From Escherichia coli (lineage in GTDB: Bacteria; Pseudomonadota; Gammaproteobacteria; Enterobacterales; Enterobacteriaceae), in the NCBI RefSeq assembly GCF_024223415.1, contig NZ_CP100500.1: a DNA stretch of 64,000 bases; one strand, given 5' to 3'. Of the stretch, positions 22,548 through 27,425 are shown one piece after another; the first letter of the stretch is position 1, and every line of letters starts with the position of its first letter. Under the pieces are notes generated by a model. It saw only the letters and a program-made list of their open reading frames with translations, searched no databases and was not told where the DNA came from. Position numbers and translations under genes: made by a program.

Positions 22548-24212
22548 TTAAAACGTTTCCCAGTTCTCCCCGCTATCTGCCACGGCCATTTTACGCAGCG
22601 CAGCTGGCGTCACGGTTTTTACCACAGCCGATGTTTCACGCTGCTGTTGCTGCTGTTGCTGAATCCGGAACACTGCCACAGCTTCGGTCAGGCGACTGGC
22701 CTGCTCTTCCAGCGCGGCGGCGGCGGCGGCAGATTCTTCCACCAGCGCGGCGTTCTGTTGAGTTACCCGGTCCATCTCAGCAACCGCTAAGCCAACCTGA
22801 TCGATACCACGGCTCTGCTCATCAGAAGCAGAAGCTATTTCGCCCATAATGTCCGTCACGCGGGTCACGGCACTGACAATCTCCGCCATTGTTTCCCCGG
22901 CGCTTTCGACCAGCGTAGAGCCAACATCCACTTTCCCCACCGAGTCTTCAATCAGGCTTTTAATTTCACGAGCCGCCTGGGCGCTACGCTGGGCCAGATT
23001 ACGCACTTCTCCCGCAACCACCGCAAAACCACGTCCTTGCTCACCCGCACGCGCTGCTTCAACCGCCGCGTTCAAAGCCAGAATATTGGTCTGGAAGGCA
23101 ATGCCGTCAATTACACTGATAATATCGGCGATTTTCTGCGAACTGGTGGAGATATCACGCATAGTCTGCACCACGTTATCTACCACTTTGCCGCCGCGTT
23201 GCGCCGTTTCAGAAGCACTTAATGCCAGATGGCTGGCCTGGCGCGCATTCTCGGCGTTCTGTTTCACCGTTGCGGTCAGTTGCTCCATGCTGGCTGCCGT
23301 CTCTTCCAGCGAAGCGGCCTGTTGCTCGGTGCGCGAAGAGAGATCGTTATTACCGGTAGCGATTTCGCTGGCACCGCTATAGATGGCATTGGCCCCGTTG
23401 CGCACATCACCGACGGTACGCATCAGTTCTCCCTGCATATGGCGCAAACTCTCTGCCAGTTGCCCCATCTCATTAGAGCCATCCACCTCAATCGGTTTCA
23501 CCAGATCGCCGCCTGCAATATGACGAATGCTGTCAATCAGGCGATTCATTGGCGCTACCAGCGAGGCTTTAATACCGAACCAGACGGCGAAGATGACCGC
23601 CAGTACGACGATCATCACGCCCACCAGAATCCACATCGCCTGGCTGTAGGAGGCATTGTTATCGCTGACGGCGATATCATAGAGCCGATCGTTTTGCTCC
23701 ATGTAAGCCACATACTGCTTCTCGAAACCGTCCTGATATCCCTGGGTCGGCTGATCAAAGAACTCGTTGATTTTGCCTGCACCTAACAGTTGGATCAGCT
23801 CCGCCAGCGCATTGTGATAAATATCGTAATTACGTTTGATCTCTGCCGCTGCGGCGGTGCTCTGACGCGGGTCACGCGGCAACGCTTCGTAATCCGCCCA
23901 GTTTTTTTCCGCCTGTTTCAGCGAAATACTGGCACTCCGCATCAGCTCAGCAACGGTTGAACCGCTACCAATATTATTCTGATCCATCATGTAGCGGATA
24001 CCCGCGCGGTTGAGGGTGTTACGCGTCTGCAACAACGCGACCCAGCTGCCATTCAGCGTGGATTGCTGCTGACGAATGGTTTGTAAAACAGTGAAATTTT
24101 CTTTGTCATTCTTTAAGGCATTAAAGAACAGACCGCCTGATGTCAGTTGTAAAAGGCCAAAAACGGCCAAAACCAGCAGTAAGCTGGTCACGATCTTGAT
24201 ACGTTTTAACAT
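22548..24212 (-). CDS. tsr: Methyl-accepting chemotaxis protein I (serine receptor)
   Basis: 554-aa MCP with HAMP domain, methylation helices and C-terminal NWETF pentapeptide; poly-Gln linker of 7 Q. Confidence 0.95.
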
Positions 24213-24242
24213 GGTTTCTCTTTCCTGTGGACCGATGCAAGA

Positions 24243-24269
24243 TTTTCGGCCTGAAATGAGAAAACTTTA
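24243..24269 (-). promoter_or_regulatory. Sigma28 (FliA) class-3 promoter of tsr
   Basis: Minus strand reads TAAAGTTT, 11-bp spacer, GCCGAAAA (consensus TAAAGTTT-N11-GCCGATAA), about 30-55 bp upstream of the tsr ATG. Confidence 0.65.
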
Positions 24270-24439
24270 TAGGTAGCGACTTGAAACTGGTTAATTTTAC
24301 CTCACTTTTTTAATTTTTGTTCAAAAATACAATAACCACTTATTGATACATTTTCTTTTCTTATTTTTTTCACACGAATTGTATCTATTTTGAACGAAAT
24401 ATTTTATAGAGTGTGGAATTTTAAGAAAGGACATCTGAA

Positions 24440-24982
24440 ATGTTAAACCGTGACTTCGATCATCTCTCAACGCTATTACATCTCTTTTTTGAACGTGAGG
24501 ATATTTGCCAAAAGCTTAATATTATTGACCAAAACAATATCACCGGTTGGGAAGTGTGGTTCCAGGTAGAGTTTGCTAATATGCTCTGCTCAACAGACCA
24601 TGAATGGTGGCGTGAACAAGCACTTTCCTGTGATATGCGCAAAAAACCTGAGCGCCCGACACTACGCACAGATTTCTTACTACGTAAAAAAGGCTGGGCA
24701 CAAGATAGCTATATCGCGCTTGAAATAAAACAAAACAGAGACGCGACCAGTTGTGTTAAAAATATGATCGCAGACTTAGAAAAAAGCGCAAAAATAAAAC
24801 GTTCCGAACTCGATTTACGCAGTTTCTGGACCTTGGGTATCACCCCTATGATAGACAGGGAAAGGCTGGACTCTCTCATCGATTGCTATTTAGATGAGAA
24901 ATTTTATCTTACTAAATCTCGTAAAAAACACGTTTTACTTAAAGAAATAAATAACACACCATATTGCTATATTGTTATTTAA
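24440..24982 (+). CDS. Hypothetical protein, AT-rich orphan ORF (180 aa) with possible PD-(D/E)xK-like motif
   Basis: ATG preceded by aagaaagga; markedly AT-rich versus flanking core genes; residues ...RTDFLL...IALEIKQ... resemble a D...ExK nuclease core; no family recognised. Confidence 0.4.
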   Translation: MLNRDFDHLSTLLHLFFEREDICQKLNIIDQNNITGWEVWFQVEFANMLCSTDHEWWREQALSCDMRKKPERPTLRTDFLLRKKGWAQDSYIALEIKQNRDATSCVKNMIADLEKSAKIKRSELDLRSFWTLGITPMIDRERLDSLIDCYLDEKFYLTKSRKKHVLLKEINNTPYCYIVI

Positions 24983-25090
24983 TATTTATAGCATGAATAT
25001 AATTTTTAAATGAGTTACACAACCGAGGGCTAAAAATCGCTTCGGTTGTGATCATCATCACATAAATAACCTTCATAAACCTTGCTCAAA

Positions 25091-25139
25091 ACCGCTCAAC
25101 CGCAAAACTGACCGCTTACGTCCCTAAAATAACCACTCA
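25091..25139 (+). promoter_or_regulatory. BtsR (YehT) binding motifs upstream of btsT
   Basis: Three direct copies of ACC(G/A)CT(C/T)A: ACCGCTCA (25091), ACCGCTTA (25111), ACCACTCA (25132); the last two are separated by 13 bp. Confidence 0.55.
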
Positions 25140-25274
25140 GTTATTTACCTTACTTTACGCGCGCGTAACTCTGGCAGCATCACTGCAGGATAGCGGTCAA
25201 TTTACCTCCTCAAACGCAACGCAAACCTAGAACGGCTTCGGCCAACTATTAATCAATACATGCCAGGTTTTACT

Positions 25275-27425
25275 ATGGATACGAAAAAACTATTCAAGCA
25301 CATACCCTGGGTGATTCTCGGAATCATCGGTGCATTCTGCCTCGCGGTAGTTGCATTACGTCGGGGGGAGCACGTCAGCGCCCTGTGGATCGTGGTCGCC
25401 TCTGTGTCGGTGTATCTGGTGGCGTATCGCTACTACAGTTTGTATATCGCCCAGAAGGTGATGAAACTCGACCCCACGCGCGCGACGCCTGCGGTTATTA
25501 ACAACGACGGTCTGAACTACGTTCCGACCAACCGTTACGTGTTGTTTGGTCACCACTTCGCCGCTATCGCCGGTGCTGGTCCGCTGGTTGGTCCGGTTCT
25601 CGCCGCGCAGATGGGCTATCTGCCTGGCACGCTGTGGCTGCTGGCGGGGGTAGTGCTGGCCGGTGCGGTACAGGACTTTATGGTGCTGTTTATCTCCTCT
25701 CGCCGTAACGGCGCATCTCTCGGTGAGATGATCAAAGAAGAGATGGGACCAGTACCGGGGACTATCGCGCTGTTTGGCTGTTTCTTAATCATGATCATCA
25801 TCCTCGCCGTCCTGGCGCTGATTGTGGTTAAAGCCCTGGCCGAAAGTCCGTGGGGTGTCTTCACCGTTTGCTCAACCGTACCGATTGCGCTGTTTATGGG
25901 TATCTACATGCGCTTTATCCGTCCGGGGCGTGTGGGTGAAGTCTCTGTTATTGGTATCGTGCTGCTGGTTGCCTCTATCTACTTCGGTGGCGTGATTGCT
26001 CACGATCCGTACTGGGGTCCGGCACTGACCTTTAAAGACACCACCATTACCTTCGCGCTGATTGGCTATGCGTTTGTTTCCGCGCTGCTGCCGGTGTGGC
26101 TGATCCTCGCACCACGCGACTATCTGGCAACCTTCCTGAAGATCGGCGTTATCGTCGGCCTGGCGCTGGGTATCGTGGTGCTGAACCCGGAACTGAAAAT
26201 GCCTGCGATGACCCAGTACATTGACGGTACTGGCCCGCTGTGGAAAGGCGCTCTGTTCCCGTTCCTGTTCATCACCATCGCCTGTGGTGCGGTATCTGGC
26301 TTCCACGCGCTGATCTCTTCCGGTACGACGCCGAAACTGCTGGCTAACGAAACCGACGCGCGTTTCATTGGCTACGGCGCAATGCTGATGGAGTCCTTCG
26401 TGGCGATTATGGCGCTGGTTGCAGCGTCCATCATCGAACCGGATCTTTACTTCGCGATGAACACCCCGCCTGCTGGCCTTGGCATCACCATGCCTAACCT
26501 GCATGAAATGGGTGGCGAGAACGCGCCGATCATCATGGCGCAGCTGAAAGACGTTACCGCACACGCGGCAGCGACCGTCAGCTCCTGGGGCTTCGTGATT
26601 TCGCCAGAGCAGATCCTGCAAACCGCGAAAGACATTGGTGAGCCTTCTGTCCTGAACCGTGCAGGTGGTGCACCAACGCTGGCGGTAGGTATCGCTCACG
26701 TGTTCCACAAAGTGCTGCCGATGGCTGACATGGGCTTCTGGTATCACTTCGGTATTCTGTTCGAAGCCCTGTTCATCCTGACCGCGCTGGATGCGGGTAC
26801 CCGTTCTGGCCGCTTTATGCTGCAAGACCTGCTGGGTAACTTCATCCCGTTCCTGAAAAAAACCGACTCTCTGGTTGCTGGTATCATCGGTACTGCGGGC
26901 TGTGTGGGTCTGTGGGGCTACCTGCTGTATCAGGGCGTTGTCGATCCGCTGGGCGGCGTTAAGAGCCTGTGGCCGCTGTTCGGTATCTCCAACCAGATGC
27001 TGGCAGCCGTAGCGCTGGTACTGGGCACCGTTGTGCTGATTAAGATGAAGCGCACCCAATACATCTGGGTAACTGTTGTTCCGGCTGTATGGCTGCTTAT
27101 CTGCACCACCTGGGCGCTGGGCCTGAAACTGTTCAGCACCAACCCGCAGATGGAAGGCTTCTTCTACATGGCAAGCCAGTACAAAGAGAAGATTGCTAAC
27201 GGTACTGACCTGACGGCACAGCAGATTGCCAACATGAACCACATCGTTGTGAACAACTACACCAACGCGGGCCTGAGTATTCTGTTCCTGATTGTGGTGT
27301 ACAGCATCATCTTCTACGGTTTCAAAACCTGGCTTGCGGTGCGTAACAGCGACAAACGTACTGACAAAGAAACACCGTACGTTCCAATCCCGGAAGGCGG
27401 CGTGAAGATCTCTTCGCACCACTAA
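25275..27425 (+). CDS. btsT: Pyruvate/H+ symporter BtsT (CstA family)
   Basis: 716-aa polytopic membrane protein; start at ATG 25275 (MDTKKLFKHIPW) inside the 721-aa track ORF. Confidence 0.9.
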   Translation: MDTKKLFKHIPWVILGIIGAFCLAVVALRRGEHVSALWIVVASVSVYLVAYRYYSLYIAQKVMKLDPTRATPAVINNDGLNYVPTNRYVLFGHHFAAIAGAGPLVGPVLAAQMGYLPGTLWLLAGVVLAGAVQDFMVLFISSRRNGASLGEMIKEEMGPVPGTIALFGCFLIMIIILAVLALIVVKALAESPWGVFTVCSTVPIALFMGIYMRFIRPGRVGEVSVIGIVLLVASIYFGGVIAHDPYWGPALTFKDTTITFALIGYAFVSALLPVWLILAPRDYLATFLKIGVIVGLALGIVVLNPELKMPAMTQYIDGTGPLWKGALFPFLFITIACGAVSGFHALISSGTTPKLLANETDARFIGYGAMLMESFVAIMALVAASIIEPDLYFAMNTPPAGLGITMPNLHEMGGENAPIIMAQLKDVTAHAAATVSSWGFVISPEQILQTAKDIGEPSVLNRAGGAPTLAVGIAHVFHKVLPMADMGFWYHFGILFEALFILTALDAGTRSGRFMLQDLLGNFIPFLKKTDSLVAGIIGTAGCVGLWGYLLYQGVVDPLGGVKSLWPLFGISNQMLAAVALVLGTVVLIKMKRTQYIWVTVVPAVWLLICTTWALGLKLFSTNPQMEGFFYMASQYKEKIANGTDLTAQQIANMNHIVVNNYTNAGLSILFLIVVYSIIFYGFKTWLAVRNSDKRTDKETPYVPIPEGGVKISSHH

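What the first reader, a model, noticed from the sequence alone, without database searches (positions are those of the whole stretch)
25085..25145. Three direct copies of the BtsR (YehT) recognition octamer upstream of btsT
ACCGCTCA, ACCGCTTA and ACCACTCA occur at roughly 20-21 bp spacing about 140-180 bp upstream of the btsT ATG. My recollection is that the described site is a direct repeat of ACC(G/A)CT(C/T)A with a 13-bp spacer, which fits copies 2 and 3; copy 1 may be an additional half-site.
Basis: partly seen in the sequence, partly recalled or inferred. Interest (0 to 1): 0.3.

Follow-up and report, generated by a model that had tools for sequence, protein, structure and literature searches.

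The report
BtsR operator of the btsT promoter
The three 8-base repeats are real and form the already described binding region of the pyruvate-responsive regulator BtsR in front of the pyruvate transporter gene btsT; the upstream third repeat, usually left out of the description, is conserved across enteric bacteria and is probably a working third binding site.

Summary
Observation confirmed. ACCGCTCA (25091-25098), ACCGCTTA (25111-25118) and ACCACTCA (25132-25139) lie on the + strand. Their starts are 20 and 21 bp apart, the spacers are 12 and 13 nt, and they sit 184, 164 and 143 nt before the btsT ATG at 25275. A same-strand triple at this spacing is expected about 2e-7 times per window.

The window is E. 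coli chromosome. From 25092 on, the region matches the published K-12 "yjiY YehT binding site" fragment apart from one spacer base. This is therefore the known BtsR (YehT) operator of a known target promoter.

What I add:
- In 71 promoters anchored on a conserved extended -10, copy 1 is kept as well as copies 2 and 3 (mean 7.6, 7.9 and 7.7 of 8), while the spacers vary freely.
- A CRP-like site sits 44 nt upstream of copy 1 in 64 of the 71.
- K-12 has GCCGCTCA at copy 1. E. coli genomes split about evenly between the G form and the perfect A form found here.

Most likely three BtsR protomers bind one DNA face at about -92, -72 and -51 of an inferred start site. Triple-repeat operators are known for the LytTR proteins RcoM-1 and CoxC. 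BtsR binding and the start site were not tested. Ordinary; low novelty.

The parts
25047..25062 (.). CRP-like site TGTGATCATCATCACA (TGTGA-N6-TCACA, 10 of 10 half-site bases), centred about -132.5 from the inferred start site
   Evidence: Read. The site starts exactly 44 nt upstream of copy 1 in 64 of 71 species, and 43-45 nt in 70 of 71. Its half-sites are invariant islands in alignment A3. cAMP-CRP control of btsT is published (PMC5431176, PMC5936718).
25091..25098 (+). Octamer copy 1, ACCGCTCA (distal), centred about -92.5. K-12 has GCCGCTCA here.
   Evidence: Mean cross-species match is 7.62 of 8: 47 of 71 are perfect and 22 of 71 match 7 of 8. Genus-weighted information is 1.7, 2.0, 2.0, 1.1, 1.7, 1.7, 1.0 and 0.7 bits, against mostly 0-0.8 bits in the flanks apart from the A just 5' of the octamer. 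C25092, C25093 and T25096 are invariant in A3.
25111..25118 (+). Octamer copy 2, ACCGCTTA (central, best conserved), centred about -72.5
   Evidence: Mean 7.90 of 8; 64 of 71 perfect. A, C, C and T are invariant in A3.
25132..25139 (+). Octamer copy 3, ACCACTCA (promoter-proximal), centred about -51.5. It typically carries A at position 4 and C at position 7.
   Evidence: Mean 7.72 of 8. Position 4 is A in 67% of genus-weighted sequences, against 7% in copy 2.
25172..25180 (+). Inferred extended -10 element TGgCAGCAT (TG, one base, then hexamer CAGCAT). The start site is inferred at about 25187 +/- 2.
   Evidence: A TGnCAnnAT-like element lies 39-40 nt after the start of copy 3 in 71 of 72 anchored species. 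G25173, A25176, A25179 and T25180 are invariant, and T25172 and C25175 are kept in at least 90% of sequences, in A3. The start site is inferred, not measured. The simple sigma-70 scan found nothing because there is no good -35.
25275..27425 (+). btsT (yjiY) coding sequence, 716 aa, the regulated gene
   Evidence: Annotated as pyruvate/proton symporter BtsT in identical genomes. It belongs to the CstA family by NCBIfam.
24251..25091 (.). Allele-specific low-GC segment (34.7% GC) upstream of the operator. It holds a 180-aa hypothetical ORF (24440-24982, +) and supplies the first A of copy 1.
   Evidence: Alignment with K-12. Found in 364 of 5426 complete E. coli genomes, including O157:H7 strains. 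GC content.

Best explanation
[quoted passage not shown] BtsR is the output of the pyruvate sensor BtsS.

Shown: three same-strand octamers of the BtsR motif lie two helical turns apart (20 and 21 bp). A CRP-like site lies upstream at a fixed distance. An extended -10 element without a good -35 lies downstream. All three elements are conserved in sequence and spacing across Enterobacterales.

Inferred: when BtsS senses external pyruvate, activated BtsR occupies the three half-sites head-to-tail on one face of the DNA, at about -92, -72 and -51. The best-conserved central copy probably nucleates binding. The divergent proximal copy (ACCACTCA) next to the -35 region is probably filled last, and its protomer contacts RNA polymerase. 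cAMP-CRP, bound in helical phase at about -132, is needed in addition, which gives the published catabolite repression.

Copy 1 is therefore a genuine third half-site, not a chance look-alike. In K-12, where the site was defined, copy 1 carries one mismatch (GCCGCTCA), so the site was described as a two-copy repeat.
For: - Sequence and position.
- Gene identity.
- From 25092 the window is identical to the published K-12 YehT-binding fragment except for one spacer base (A to G at 25120).
- Chance expectation for the triple is about 2e-7 per window.
- Nearly every species returned by the genome scan carries at least three in-phase copies at 20-21 bp.
- Anchored scores are 7.62, 7.90 and 7.72 of 8 for copies 1-3. 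The next positions upstream and downstream score 3.96 and 3.88, and background is 4.1.
- Spacer columns carry mostly 0-0.5 bits and octamer columns 1-2 bits. The invariant islands are visible in A3.
- Within E. coli, three upstream alleles differ at 17-20 of the 28 bases between the CRP site and copy 1. One allele also differs at 6 of the 12 bases of spacer 1. Copy 1 (7-8 of 8) and every length stay the same.
- The CRP-like site starts 44 nt before copy 1 in 64 of 71 species.
- btsR is present in 5425 of 5426 E. coli genomes.
- Published: BtsS/BtsR activates btsT, with additional control by cAMP-CRP, LeuO and CsrA (PMC5431176, PMC5936718).
- Published: LytTR sites are direct repeats separated by 11-13 nt (PMC4847170).
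- Published: the LytTR proteins RcoM-1 and CoxC use three 8-bp repeats with 12-13-nt spacers, and CoxC needs all three for efficient binding (PMC11347149).
Against: - No binding or expression data can be produced here.
- The published description, as I recall it, names only two repeats. K-12, with an imperfect copy 1, still induces btsT strongly, so a perfect copy 1 is not required.
- In the Enterobacter/Lelliottia/Leclercia group copy 1 ends in G (ACCACTCG or ACCGCTCG), and position 8 of copy 1 carries only 0.7 bits, so the constraint there is weaker.
- The start site, and hence the -92/-72/-51 positions, is inferred from a conserved extended -10 and not measured. It was not found in the Cappable-seq supplements.
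- Copy positions in other species were chosen as the best of four offsets, which inflates scores slightly. The background best-of-four is 4.1, and 7 or more occurs in under 4% of positions.
- The order of occupancy is borrowed from the YpdB 'AB-BA' model and is untested for BtsR.
Confidence: 0.72

Rival explanations
1. Only a BtsR dimer ever binds. The three copies offer two overlapping registers (1+2 and 2+3). The dimer sits on the distal register as a standby or decoy and shifts to the proximal register to activate, or the registers compete to shape the short expression pulse.
For: Both pairs have LytTR-compatible spacers of 12 and 13 nt. Sequential binding and rapid clearance were shown for the paralogue YpdB on a two-site operator (PMC4847170). 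Copy 2, shared by both registers, is the best conserved (7.90 of 8).
Against: There is no evidence for register switching in any LytTR protein in the papers read. CoxC needs all three repeats for efficient binding, which favours simultaneous occupancy. The rigid phasing of all three copies with CRP and the -10 fits one extended complex.
Confidence: 0.15
2. The functional BtsR operator is copies 2 and 3 only, as first described. Copy 1 is conserved for another reason, such as the site of a different protein (LeuO, for example), a DNA-shape or bending element between CRP and BtsR, or a slowly decaying remnant of an ancestral tandem duplication.
For: The published definition, as recalled, is a two-copy repeat. 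K-12 works with an imperfect copy 1. LeuO represses btsT (PMC5936718) and its site is not mapped in anything I could read.
Against: Copy 1 keeps the same octamer as copies 2 and 3, not merely some conserved sequence. It survives in about 23 genus-level groups while both flanks are randomised. A decaying remnant would look like copy 0 (5.18 of 8) or copy 4 (3.88 of 8), not 7.62 of 8.
Confidence: 0.1
3. The three octamers are a chance cluster with no function.
For: Single octamers are common: 11 in the window against 5.6 expected.
Against: The expected number of such triples is about 2e-7 per window. The location matches the published binding fragment. The array is conserved across Enterobacterales.
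Confidence: 0.005

Closest known systems
BtsR (YehT) binding site in the E. coli K-12 yjiY/btsT promoter (Kraxenberger et al. 2012, J Bacteriol 194:4272; fragment 'yjiY YehT bs' in PMC4847170)
   Same: It is the same gene and the same position. The sequence from 25092 to 25143 is identical except for one spacer base. Copies 2 and 3 are identical, with a 13-nt spacer.
   Different: Copy 1 is a perfect ACCGCTCA here and GCCGCTCA in K-12. The 45 nt upstream (CRP site to copy 1) belong to a different allele, with only 11 of 28 spacer bases identical to K-12. A 180-aa ORF lies between tsr and the promoter.
YpdB (PyrR) operator of yhjX: two GGCATTTCAT direct repeats with an 11-nt spacer, 'AB-BA' sequential binding (PMC4847170)
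   Same: YpdB is a paralogous LytS/LytTR pyruvate-sensing system. It also uses direct repeats about 21 bp apart upstream of a transporter gene, and activation is pulsed.
   Different: The motif is different. Two sites are described, although by eye the published 58-nt footprint-sized fragment also holds a degenerate upstream copy (GTCATTCAT) about 20 bp before site A. I did not follow that up.
RcoM-1 (Paraburkholderia xenovorans) and CoxC (Afipia carboxidovorans) LytTR operators (PMC11347149)
   Same: Both use three 8-bp direct repeats evenly spaced by 12-13 nt and bound by a LytTR domain. CoxC needs all three repeats for efficient binding. The geometry is the same as here (8-bp repeats, 12- and 13-nt spacers).
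   Different: The motif is unrelated (TTCNNGCA or TTNNNGCN). The input domains differ (haem-PAS, MHYT) and they are not two-component response regulators. The CoxC operator overlaps the -35 and represses, whereas this array lies upstream of the -35 region and the published effect of BtsR is activation.
AgrA P2/P3, ComE and other canonical LytTR operators
   Same: They use direct repeats of 9-11 bp separated by 11-13 nt (10-13 nt in another account), usually upstream of the -35, and the regulator activates (PMC4847170, PMC11347149).
   Different: The canonical form has two repeats. Here three are conserved, and a CRP site is locked in phase upstream.

Membership tests
BtsR (YehT) operator of the btsT/yjiY promoter | Direct repeat of ACC[G/A]CT[C/T]A separated by 13 nt (definition recalled from Kraxenberger et al. 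2012; paper not held) | tested here: met
   Copies 2 and 3 (25111-25118 and 25132-25139) are exact matches with a 13-nt spacer.
BtsR (YehT) operator of the btsT/yjiY promoter | Lies in the promoter region directly upstream of btsT (yjiY) | tested here: met
   btsT is annotated at 25275-27425 in 100% identical genomes. The array lies 143-184 nt upstream of the ATG and 39-40 nt upstream of a conserved extended -10.
BtsR (YehT) operator of the btsT/yjiY promoter | Sequence identity with the experimentally used K-12 YehT-binding fragment | tested here: met
   The published fragment is CCTTTGCCGCTCAACCGCAAAACTGACCGCTTACATCCCTAAAATAACCACTCAGTTA (PMC4847170). The window is identical from CCGCTCA onward except for A to G at 25120. 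The 6 nt at the 5' end of the fragment differ.
BtsR (YehT) operator of the btsT/yjiY promoter | Cognate regulator gene btsR present in the organism | tested here: met
   btsR is not in the window, but it is found in 5425 of 5426 complete E. coli genomes.
BtsR (YehT) operator of the btsT/yjiY promoter | BtsR binds the DNA, and btsT induction by pyruvate depends on it | not testable with these tools
   This needs EMSA, footprinting or reporter assays. It is published for K-12 and Salmonella (PMC5431176, PMC9504724), not for this allele.
Canonical LytTR operator (AgrA, ComE, YpdB type) | Direct repeats of 8-11 bp separated by 10-13 nt | tested here: met
   The repeats are 8 bp with spacers of 12 and 13 nt. 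The family description comes from PMC4847170 and PMC11347149.
Canonical LytTR operator (AgrA, ComE, YpdB type) | Exactly two repeats | tested here: not met
   Three in-phase copies are present here and conserved in 69 of 71 species at 7 or more of 8 matches.
Triple-repeat LytTR operator (RcoM-1, CoxC type) | Three 8-bp direct repeats evenly spaced by 12-13 nt | tested here: met
   The description of RcoM-1 and CoxC is in PMC11347149.
Triple-repeat LytTR operator (RcoM-1, CoxC type) | All three repeats needed for efficient binding | not testable with these tools
   Conservation of all three is the only indirect support.
CRP-co-dependent promoter | CRP consensus TGTGA-N6-TCACA in the promoter, with published cAMP-CRP dependence | tested here: met
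   TGTGATCATCATCACA at 25047-25062 matches 10 of 10 half-site bases. Its distance to copy 1 is fixed in 64 of 71 species. cAMP-CRP dependence of btsT is published. CRP binding to this particular site was not tested here.

The most novel reading that the evidence does not exclude
The natural BtsR operator is a three-site array, not a two-site array. It is locked in helical phase with a CRP site 44 nt upstream, across Enterobacterales. The two-site description reflects K-12, which carries a weakened distal site (GCCGCTCA). E. coli is split about evenly: 2633 genomes carry the G form and 2622 the perfect A form, including O157:H7 and this window. This natural polymorphism may tune the threshold or amplitude of pyruvate-induced btsT expression. 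It would also place BtsR with RcoM-1 and CoxC as a LytTR protein that works on triple repeats.
Probability: 0.45. Interest if true: 0.35.

Novelty: already known. Interest (0 to 1): 0.22.

Why it matters
The site is the single known output switch of the BtsS/BtsR high-affinity pyruvate-sensing system, so it matters for understanding pyruvate scavenging in enteric bacteria. It is already described, however.

The useful increment is that the operator appears to have three conserved half-sites in fixed phase with a CRP site. The laboratory strain used to define it has the weaker version of the distal half-site, while about half of E. coli, including O157:H7, has the perfect version.

That gives a cheap, direct experiment: swap A and G at one base, or scramble copy 1. 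It would test how many LytTR protomers are needed for activation and whether strains differ in pyruvate response.

Tried and rejected
- The primary paper (Kraxenberger et al. 2012) and two companion J Bacteriol papers are not in the held library. Full-text searches for the motif wording found nothing. The exact published definition, and whether the authors already discussed a third copy, therefore rest on memory.
- I looked for a measured btsT start site in the Cappable-seq supplements. There were no hits, so the start site stays inferred.
- The simple sigma-70/terminator scan of 24950-25300 found nothing. The promoter lacks a -35 consensus and is recognisable only by cross-species conservation of an extended -10.
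- Rfam found no match in 24200-25400. The 5' UTR does not fold better than shuffles (z = +1.0), so I do not propose a structured leader.
- A sigma-54-like match (TGGCAG-N5-CTGCA, 25172-25187) was considered and rejected. K-12 has CTACA at the -12 element, other genera differ there, and BtsR has no AAA+ activator domain.
- A fourth copy upstream ('copy 0', between CRP and copy 1) is only weakly supported: mean 5.18 of 8 against 4.1 for background, and 4 of 8 in this window. I did not count it.
- A fourth copy downstream, at the -35 region, exists in Pantoea, Erwinia and Kosakonia but not in Escherichia.
- The 180-aa ORF gave only sub-threshold hits (TnsA-like N-terminal, E = 0.068; orphan methyltransferase model, E = 9e-4; no NCBIfam hit). 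It was left unassigned.

Full report
**1. Observation**

The window reads ...CTCAAAACCGCTCAACCGCAAAACTGACCGCTTACGTCCCTAAAATAACCACTCAGTTA.... An exact search for ACCRCTYA places three + strand matches at 25091-25098 (ACCGCTCA), 25111-25118 (ACCGCTTA) and 25132-25139 (ACCACTCA).

- The starts are 20 and 21 bp apart, and the spacers are 12 and 13 nt.
- The starts are 184, 164 and 143 nt upstream of the btsT ATG at 25275.
- The ORF lister starts the frame at an in-frame ATG at 25260. RefSeq annotates the 716-aa protein from 25275.

The octamer alone is not informative: the window has 11 matches against 5.6 expected. A same-strand triple at 19-22 bp steps is expected about 2e-7 times per window and about 1.5e-5 times per genome. 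None of 300 Markov simulations gave even a pair.

**2. What the locus is**

The window is E. coli chromosome, 100% identical over 1.3 kb to several complete genomes. The local order is lgoT, tsr (- strand, 22548-24212), a 180-aa hypothetical ORF (24440-24982), btsT, yjiX, yjiA.

A paper from the group that characterised the system lists a 58-nt K-12 fragment named 'yjiY YehT bs': CCTTTGCCGCTCAACCGCAAAACTGACCGCTTACATCCCTAAAATAACCACTCAGTTA (PMC4847170 Table 1). It spans all three octamer positions. From CCGCTCA onward the window is identical to it except for one spacer base, A to G at 25120. The feature is therefore the known BtsR/YehT operator.

The held literature also states the following:
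- BtsS/BtsR has btsT as its single target.
- btsT is also under cAMP-CRP, LeuO and CsrA control.
- btsT expression is absent in a Salmonella btsSR deletion mutant.

The paper that defined the motif (Kraxenberger et al. 2012) is not held. It fits copies 2 and 3.

**3. Copy 1 in K-12 and in the E. coli population**

Aligned with MG1655, near-identity begins exactly at 25092. K-12 reads TTTGCCGCTCA, so its copy 1 is GCCGCTCA (7 of 8). The window's first A (25091) belongs to an allele-specific upstream segment (24251-25091, 34.7% GC against 49.5% for the whole window).

Allele-specific 73-mers sort the complete E. coli genomes into three classes:

| Class | Genomes | Upstream neighbour | Copy 1 | Examples or notes |
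|---|---|---|---|---|
| K type | 2633 | tsr | GCCGCTCA | K-12, an O25:H4 strain |
| W type | 364 | 180-aa ORF | ACCGCTCA | this window, O157:H7 strains |
| H type | 2258 | hpaC or an amino-acid deaminase gene | ACCGCTCA | spacer 1 differs (CCGCCATTCCTG) |

The three alleles are co-linear from the CRP-like site to copy 3. They share only 8-11 of the 28 bases between the CRP site and copy 1, and H differs from W and K at 6 of the 12 bases of spacer 1. Yet copy 1 is 7-8 of 8, copies 2 and 3 are 8 of 8, and no length changes. Copy 1 is thus an island of identity with diverged sequence on both sides, within one species. At least one recombinant exists, with K-type upstream sequence and H-type spacer 1.

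**4. Cross-species footprint**

A scan of one genome per species with BtsT returned 80 loci at 90-100% protein identity. They run from Escherichia, Salmonella, Citrobacter, Klebsiella, Raoultella, Kluyvera, Kosakonia and Enterobacter to Pantoea, Erwinia, Mixta, Rahnella and Leminorella. Chaining octamer-like words at 19-22 bp steps finds at least three in-phase copies in nearly every locus with enough upstream sequence.

I anchored the arrays on a conserved TGnCAnnAT element that lies 39-40 nt after the proximal copy in 71 of 72 anchored loci. The mean matches to the octamer are:

| Position | Mean match (of 8) | Notes |
|---|---|---|
| Copy 3 | 7.72 | |
| Copy 2 | 7.90 | |
| Copy 1 | 7.62 | 47 perfect, 22 with one mismatch, of 71 |
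| Next position upstream ('copy 0') | 5.18 | |
| One further upstream | 3.96 | |
| One downstream | 3.88 | |
| Background (best of four offsets) | 4.1 | |

With genus-level weighting, the copy 1 columns carry 1.7, 2.0, 2.0, 1.1, 1.7, 1.7, 1.0 and 0.7 bits. The flanks carry mostly 0-0.8 bits, apart from the A just 5' of the octamer at 1.4 bits.

A 31-sequence alignment (A3) shows the same pattern. The invariant or nearly invariant columns fall in the CRP half-sites, AACCGCT of copy 1, ACCGCT.A of copy 2, ACC.CT.A of copy 3 and T.TG.CA..AT. Almost everything else varies.

The copies are not interchangeable. Copy 2 is nearly always ACCGCTTA. Copy 3 usually has A at position 4 (67%, against 7% in copy 2) and C at position 7.

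The CRP-like site starts exactly 44 nt before copy 1 in 64 of 71 species, and 43-45 nt before it in 70 of 71.

**5. Mechanism**

Shown:
- The operator matches the published BtsR-binding fragment.
- Three conserved same-strand half-sites lie two helical turns apart.
- A conserved CRP-like site and an extended -10 lie at fixed distances.
- btsR is present in 5425 of 5426 E. coli genomes.

Inferred:
- The -10 hexamer is CAGCAT (25175-25180), preceded by TG (25172-25173). The invariant A25176 and T25180 are its -11 and -7 bases.
- The start site is then about 25187.
- That places copies 1, 2 and 3 at about -92.5, -72.5 and -51.5, and CRP at about -132.5, all on one face of the helix.
- There is no good -35, as expected for an activator-dependent promoter.

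I propose that activated BtsR fills the three sites as a head-to-tail array. The proximal protomer contacts RNA polymerase, and CRP acts in phase from upstream. The order of filling (central or distal sites first, the divergent proximal site last) is borrowed from the YpdB 'AB-BA' model (PMC4847170) and is untested.

A triple array is not exotic for LytTR domains. RcoM-1 and CoxC use three 8-bp repeats with 12-13-nt spacers, and CoxC needs all three for efficient binding (PMC11347149).

Rivals:
- One dimer uses two alternative registers.
- Copy 1 is conserved for a non-BtsR reason.
- The cluster is chance, which is refuted.

**6. Comparison, novelty and verdict**

The feature is a member of the known BtsR operator. 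It met every testable defining feature. Binding itself cannot be tested here. It departs from the canonical two-repeat LytTR operator in having three conserved repeats, and it shares its geometry with the RcoM-1/CoxC operators but not their motif.

The increment from this work has three parts: the distal copy is as conserved as the two described ones, a CRP site is phase-locked to it, and E. coli is split about evenly between a perfect copy 1 and the one-mismatch copy 1 of K-12. I could not establish whether the primary paper already discusses the distal copy. The published fragment includes it, and a later paper cites the primary paper, among others, for the statement that flanking DNA also seems to matter for binding.

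Interest is low (0.22). If the three-site model and the strain polymorphism prove functional, it would be a modest refinement (about 0.35).

**7. Dead ends**

These are listed under Tried and rejected.

Noticed in passing
window 24251-25091 (ORF 24440-24982, + strand): A low-GC segment (34.7% against 49.5% for the window) lies between tsr and the btsT promoter and encodes a 180-aa hypothetical protein. It is present in only 364 of 5426 complete E. coli genomes, including O157:H7 strains. The only hits are sub-threshold: TnsA-like endonuclease N-terminal (E = 0.068) and an orphan-methyltransferase defence model (E = 9e-4). NCBIfam gives nothing.
   Followed up: partly
window 24213-25091; loci L083-L088: The tsr-btsT interval is a gene-content hot spot in E. 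coli. Alternative upstream neighbours of the btsT promoter are tsr itself (K-12 type), the 180-aa ORF, hpaC (the hpa cluster) or an amino-acid deaminase gene. All variants converge at the CRP site and copy 1. One strain has IS26 inserted in place of the start of btsT.
   Followed up: partly
L084:567-689; also L003, L005, L016; the insertion point corresponds to window about 25258-25259: A roughly 123-bp element is inserted in the btsT 5' UTR about 15 nt before the ATG in 2065 of 5426 E. coli genomes, and in Escherichia sp. E1V33, E. albertii and Citrobacter portucalensis. By eye its core matches the ERIC1R and ERIC2 primer sequences, so it looks like an ERIC/IRU element. It is absent from this window and from K-12. 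Its effect on translation or CsrA control is unknown.
   Followed up: partly
window 25047-25062: A perfect CRP-type palindrome (TGTGATCATCATCACA) is kept at exactly 44 nt from copy 1 in 64 of 71 species, although the 28 nt in between are not conserved. At about -132.5 this is unusually far upstream for a CRP activator site.
   Followed up: yes
window 25143-25166: The block ATTTACCTTACTTTACGCGCGCG between copy 3 and the -10 is conserved in Escherichia, Salmonella, Citrobacter, Klebsiella and Enterobacter. It is replaced in Pantoea, Erwinia and Kosakonia, where a fourth octamer-like copy (ACCGCTCA, ACCGCTGA or ACCGCTTT) occupies that position. Its role (a weak -35, another factor's site or a decayed fourth copy) is unexplained.
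   Followed up: partly
window 25172-25187: A sigma-54-like word, TGGCAG-N5-CTGCA, overlaps the inferred -10 and start site. It is not conserved: K-12 has CTACA and other genera differ. It is probably chance.
   Followed up: yes
published yhjX fragment in PMC4847170 Table 1 (not in the window): The 58-nt YpdB fragment of the paralogous system, sized to the DNase I footprint, also contains a degenerate upstream copy (GTCATTCAT) about 20 bp before site A. A third distal half-site may be a shared feature of both E. coli LytTR operators.
   Followed up: no
window 25260 versus 25275: An in-frame ATG 15 nt upstream of the annotated btsT start would extend the ORF to 721 aa. Annotation and the cross-species alignment support 25275.
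   Followed up: partly
window 24335-24342: A further single + strand octamer match (ACCACTTA) lies in the tsr-to-ORF spacer. It is isolated, with no partner at 19-22 bp, and is consistent with the chance rate.
   Followed up: yes
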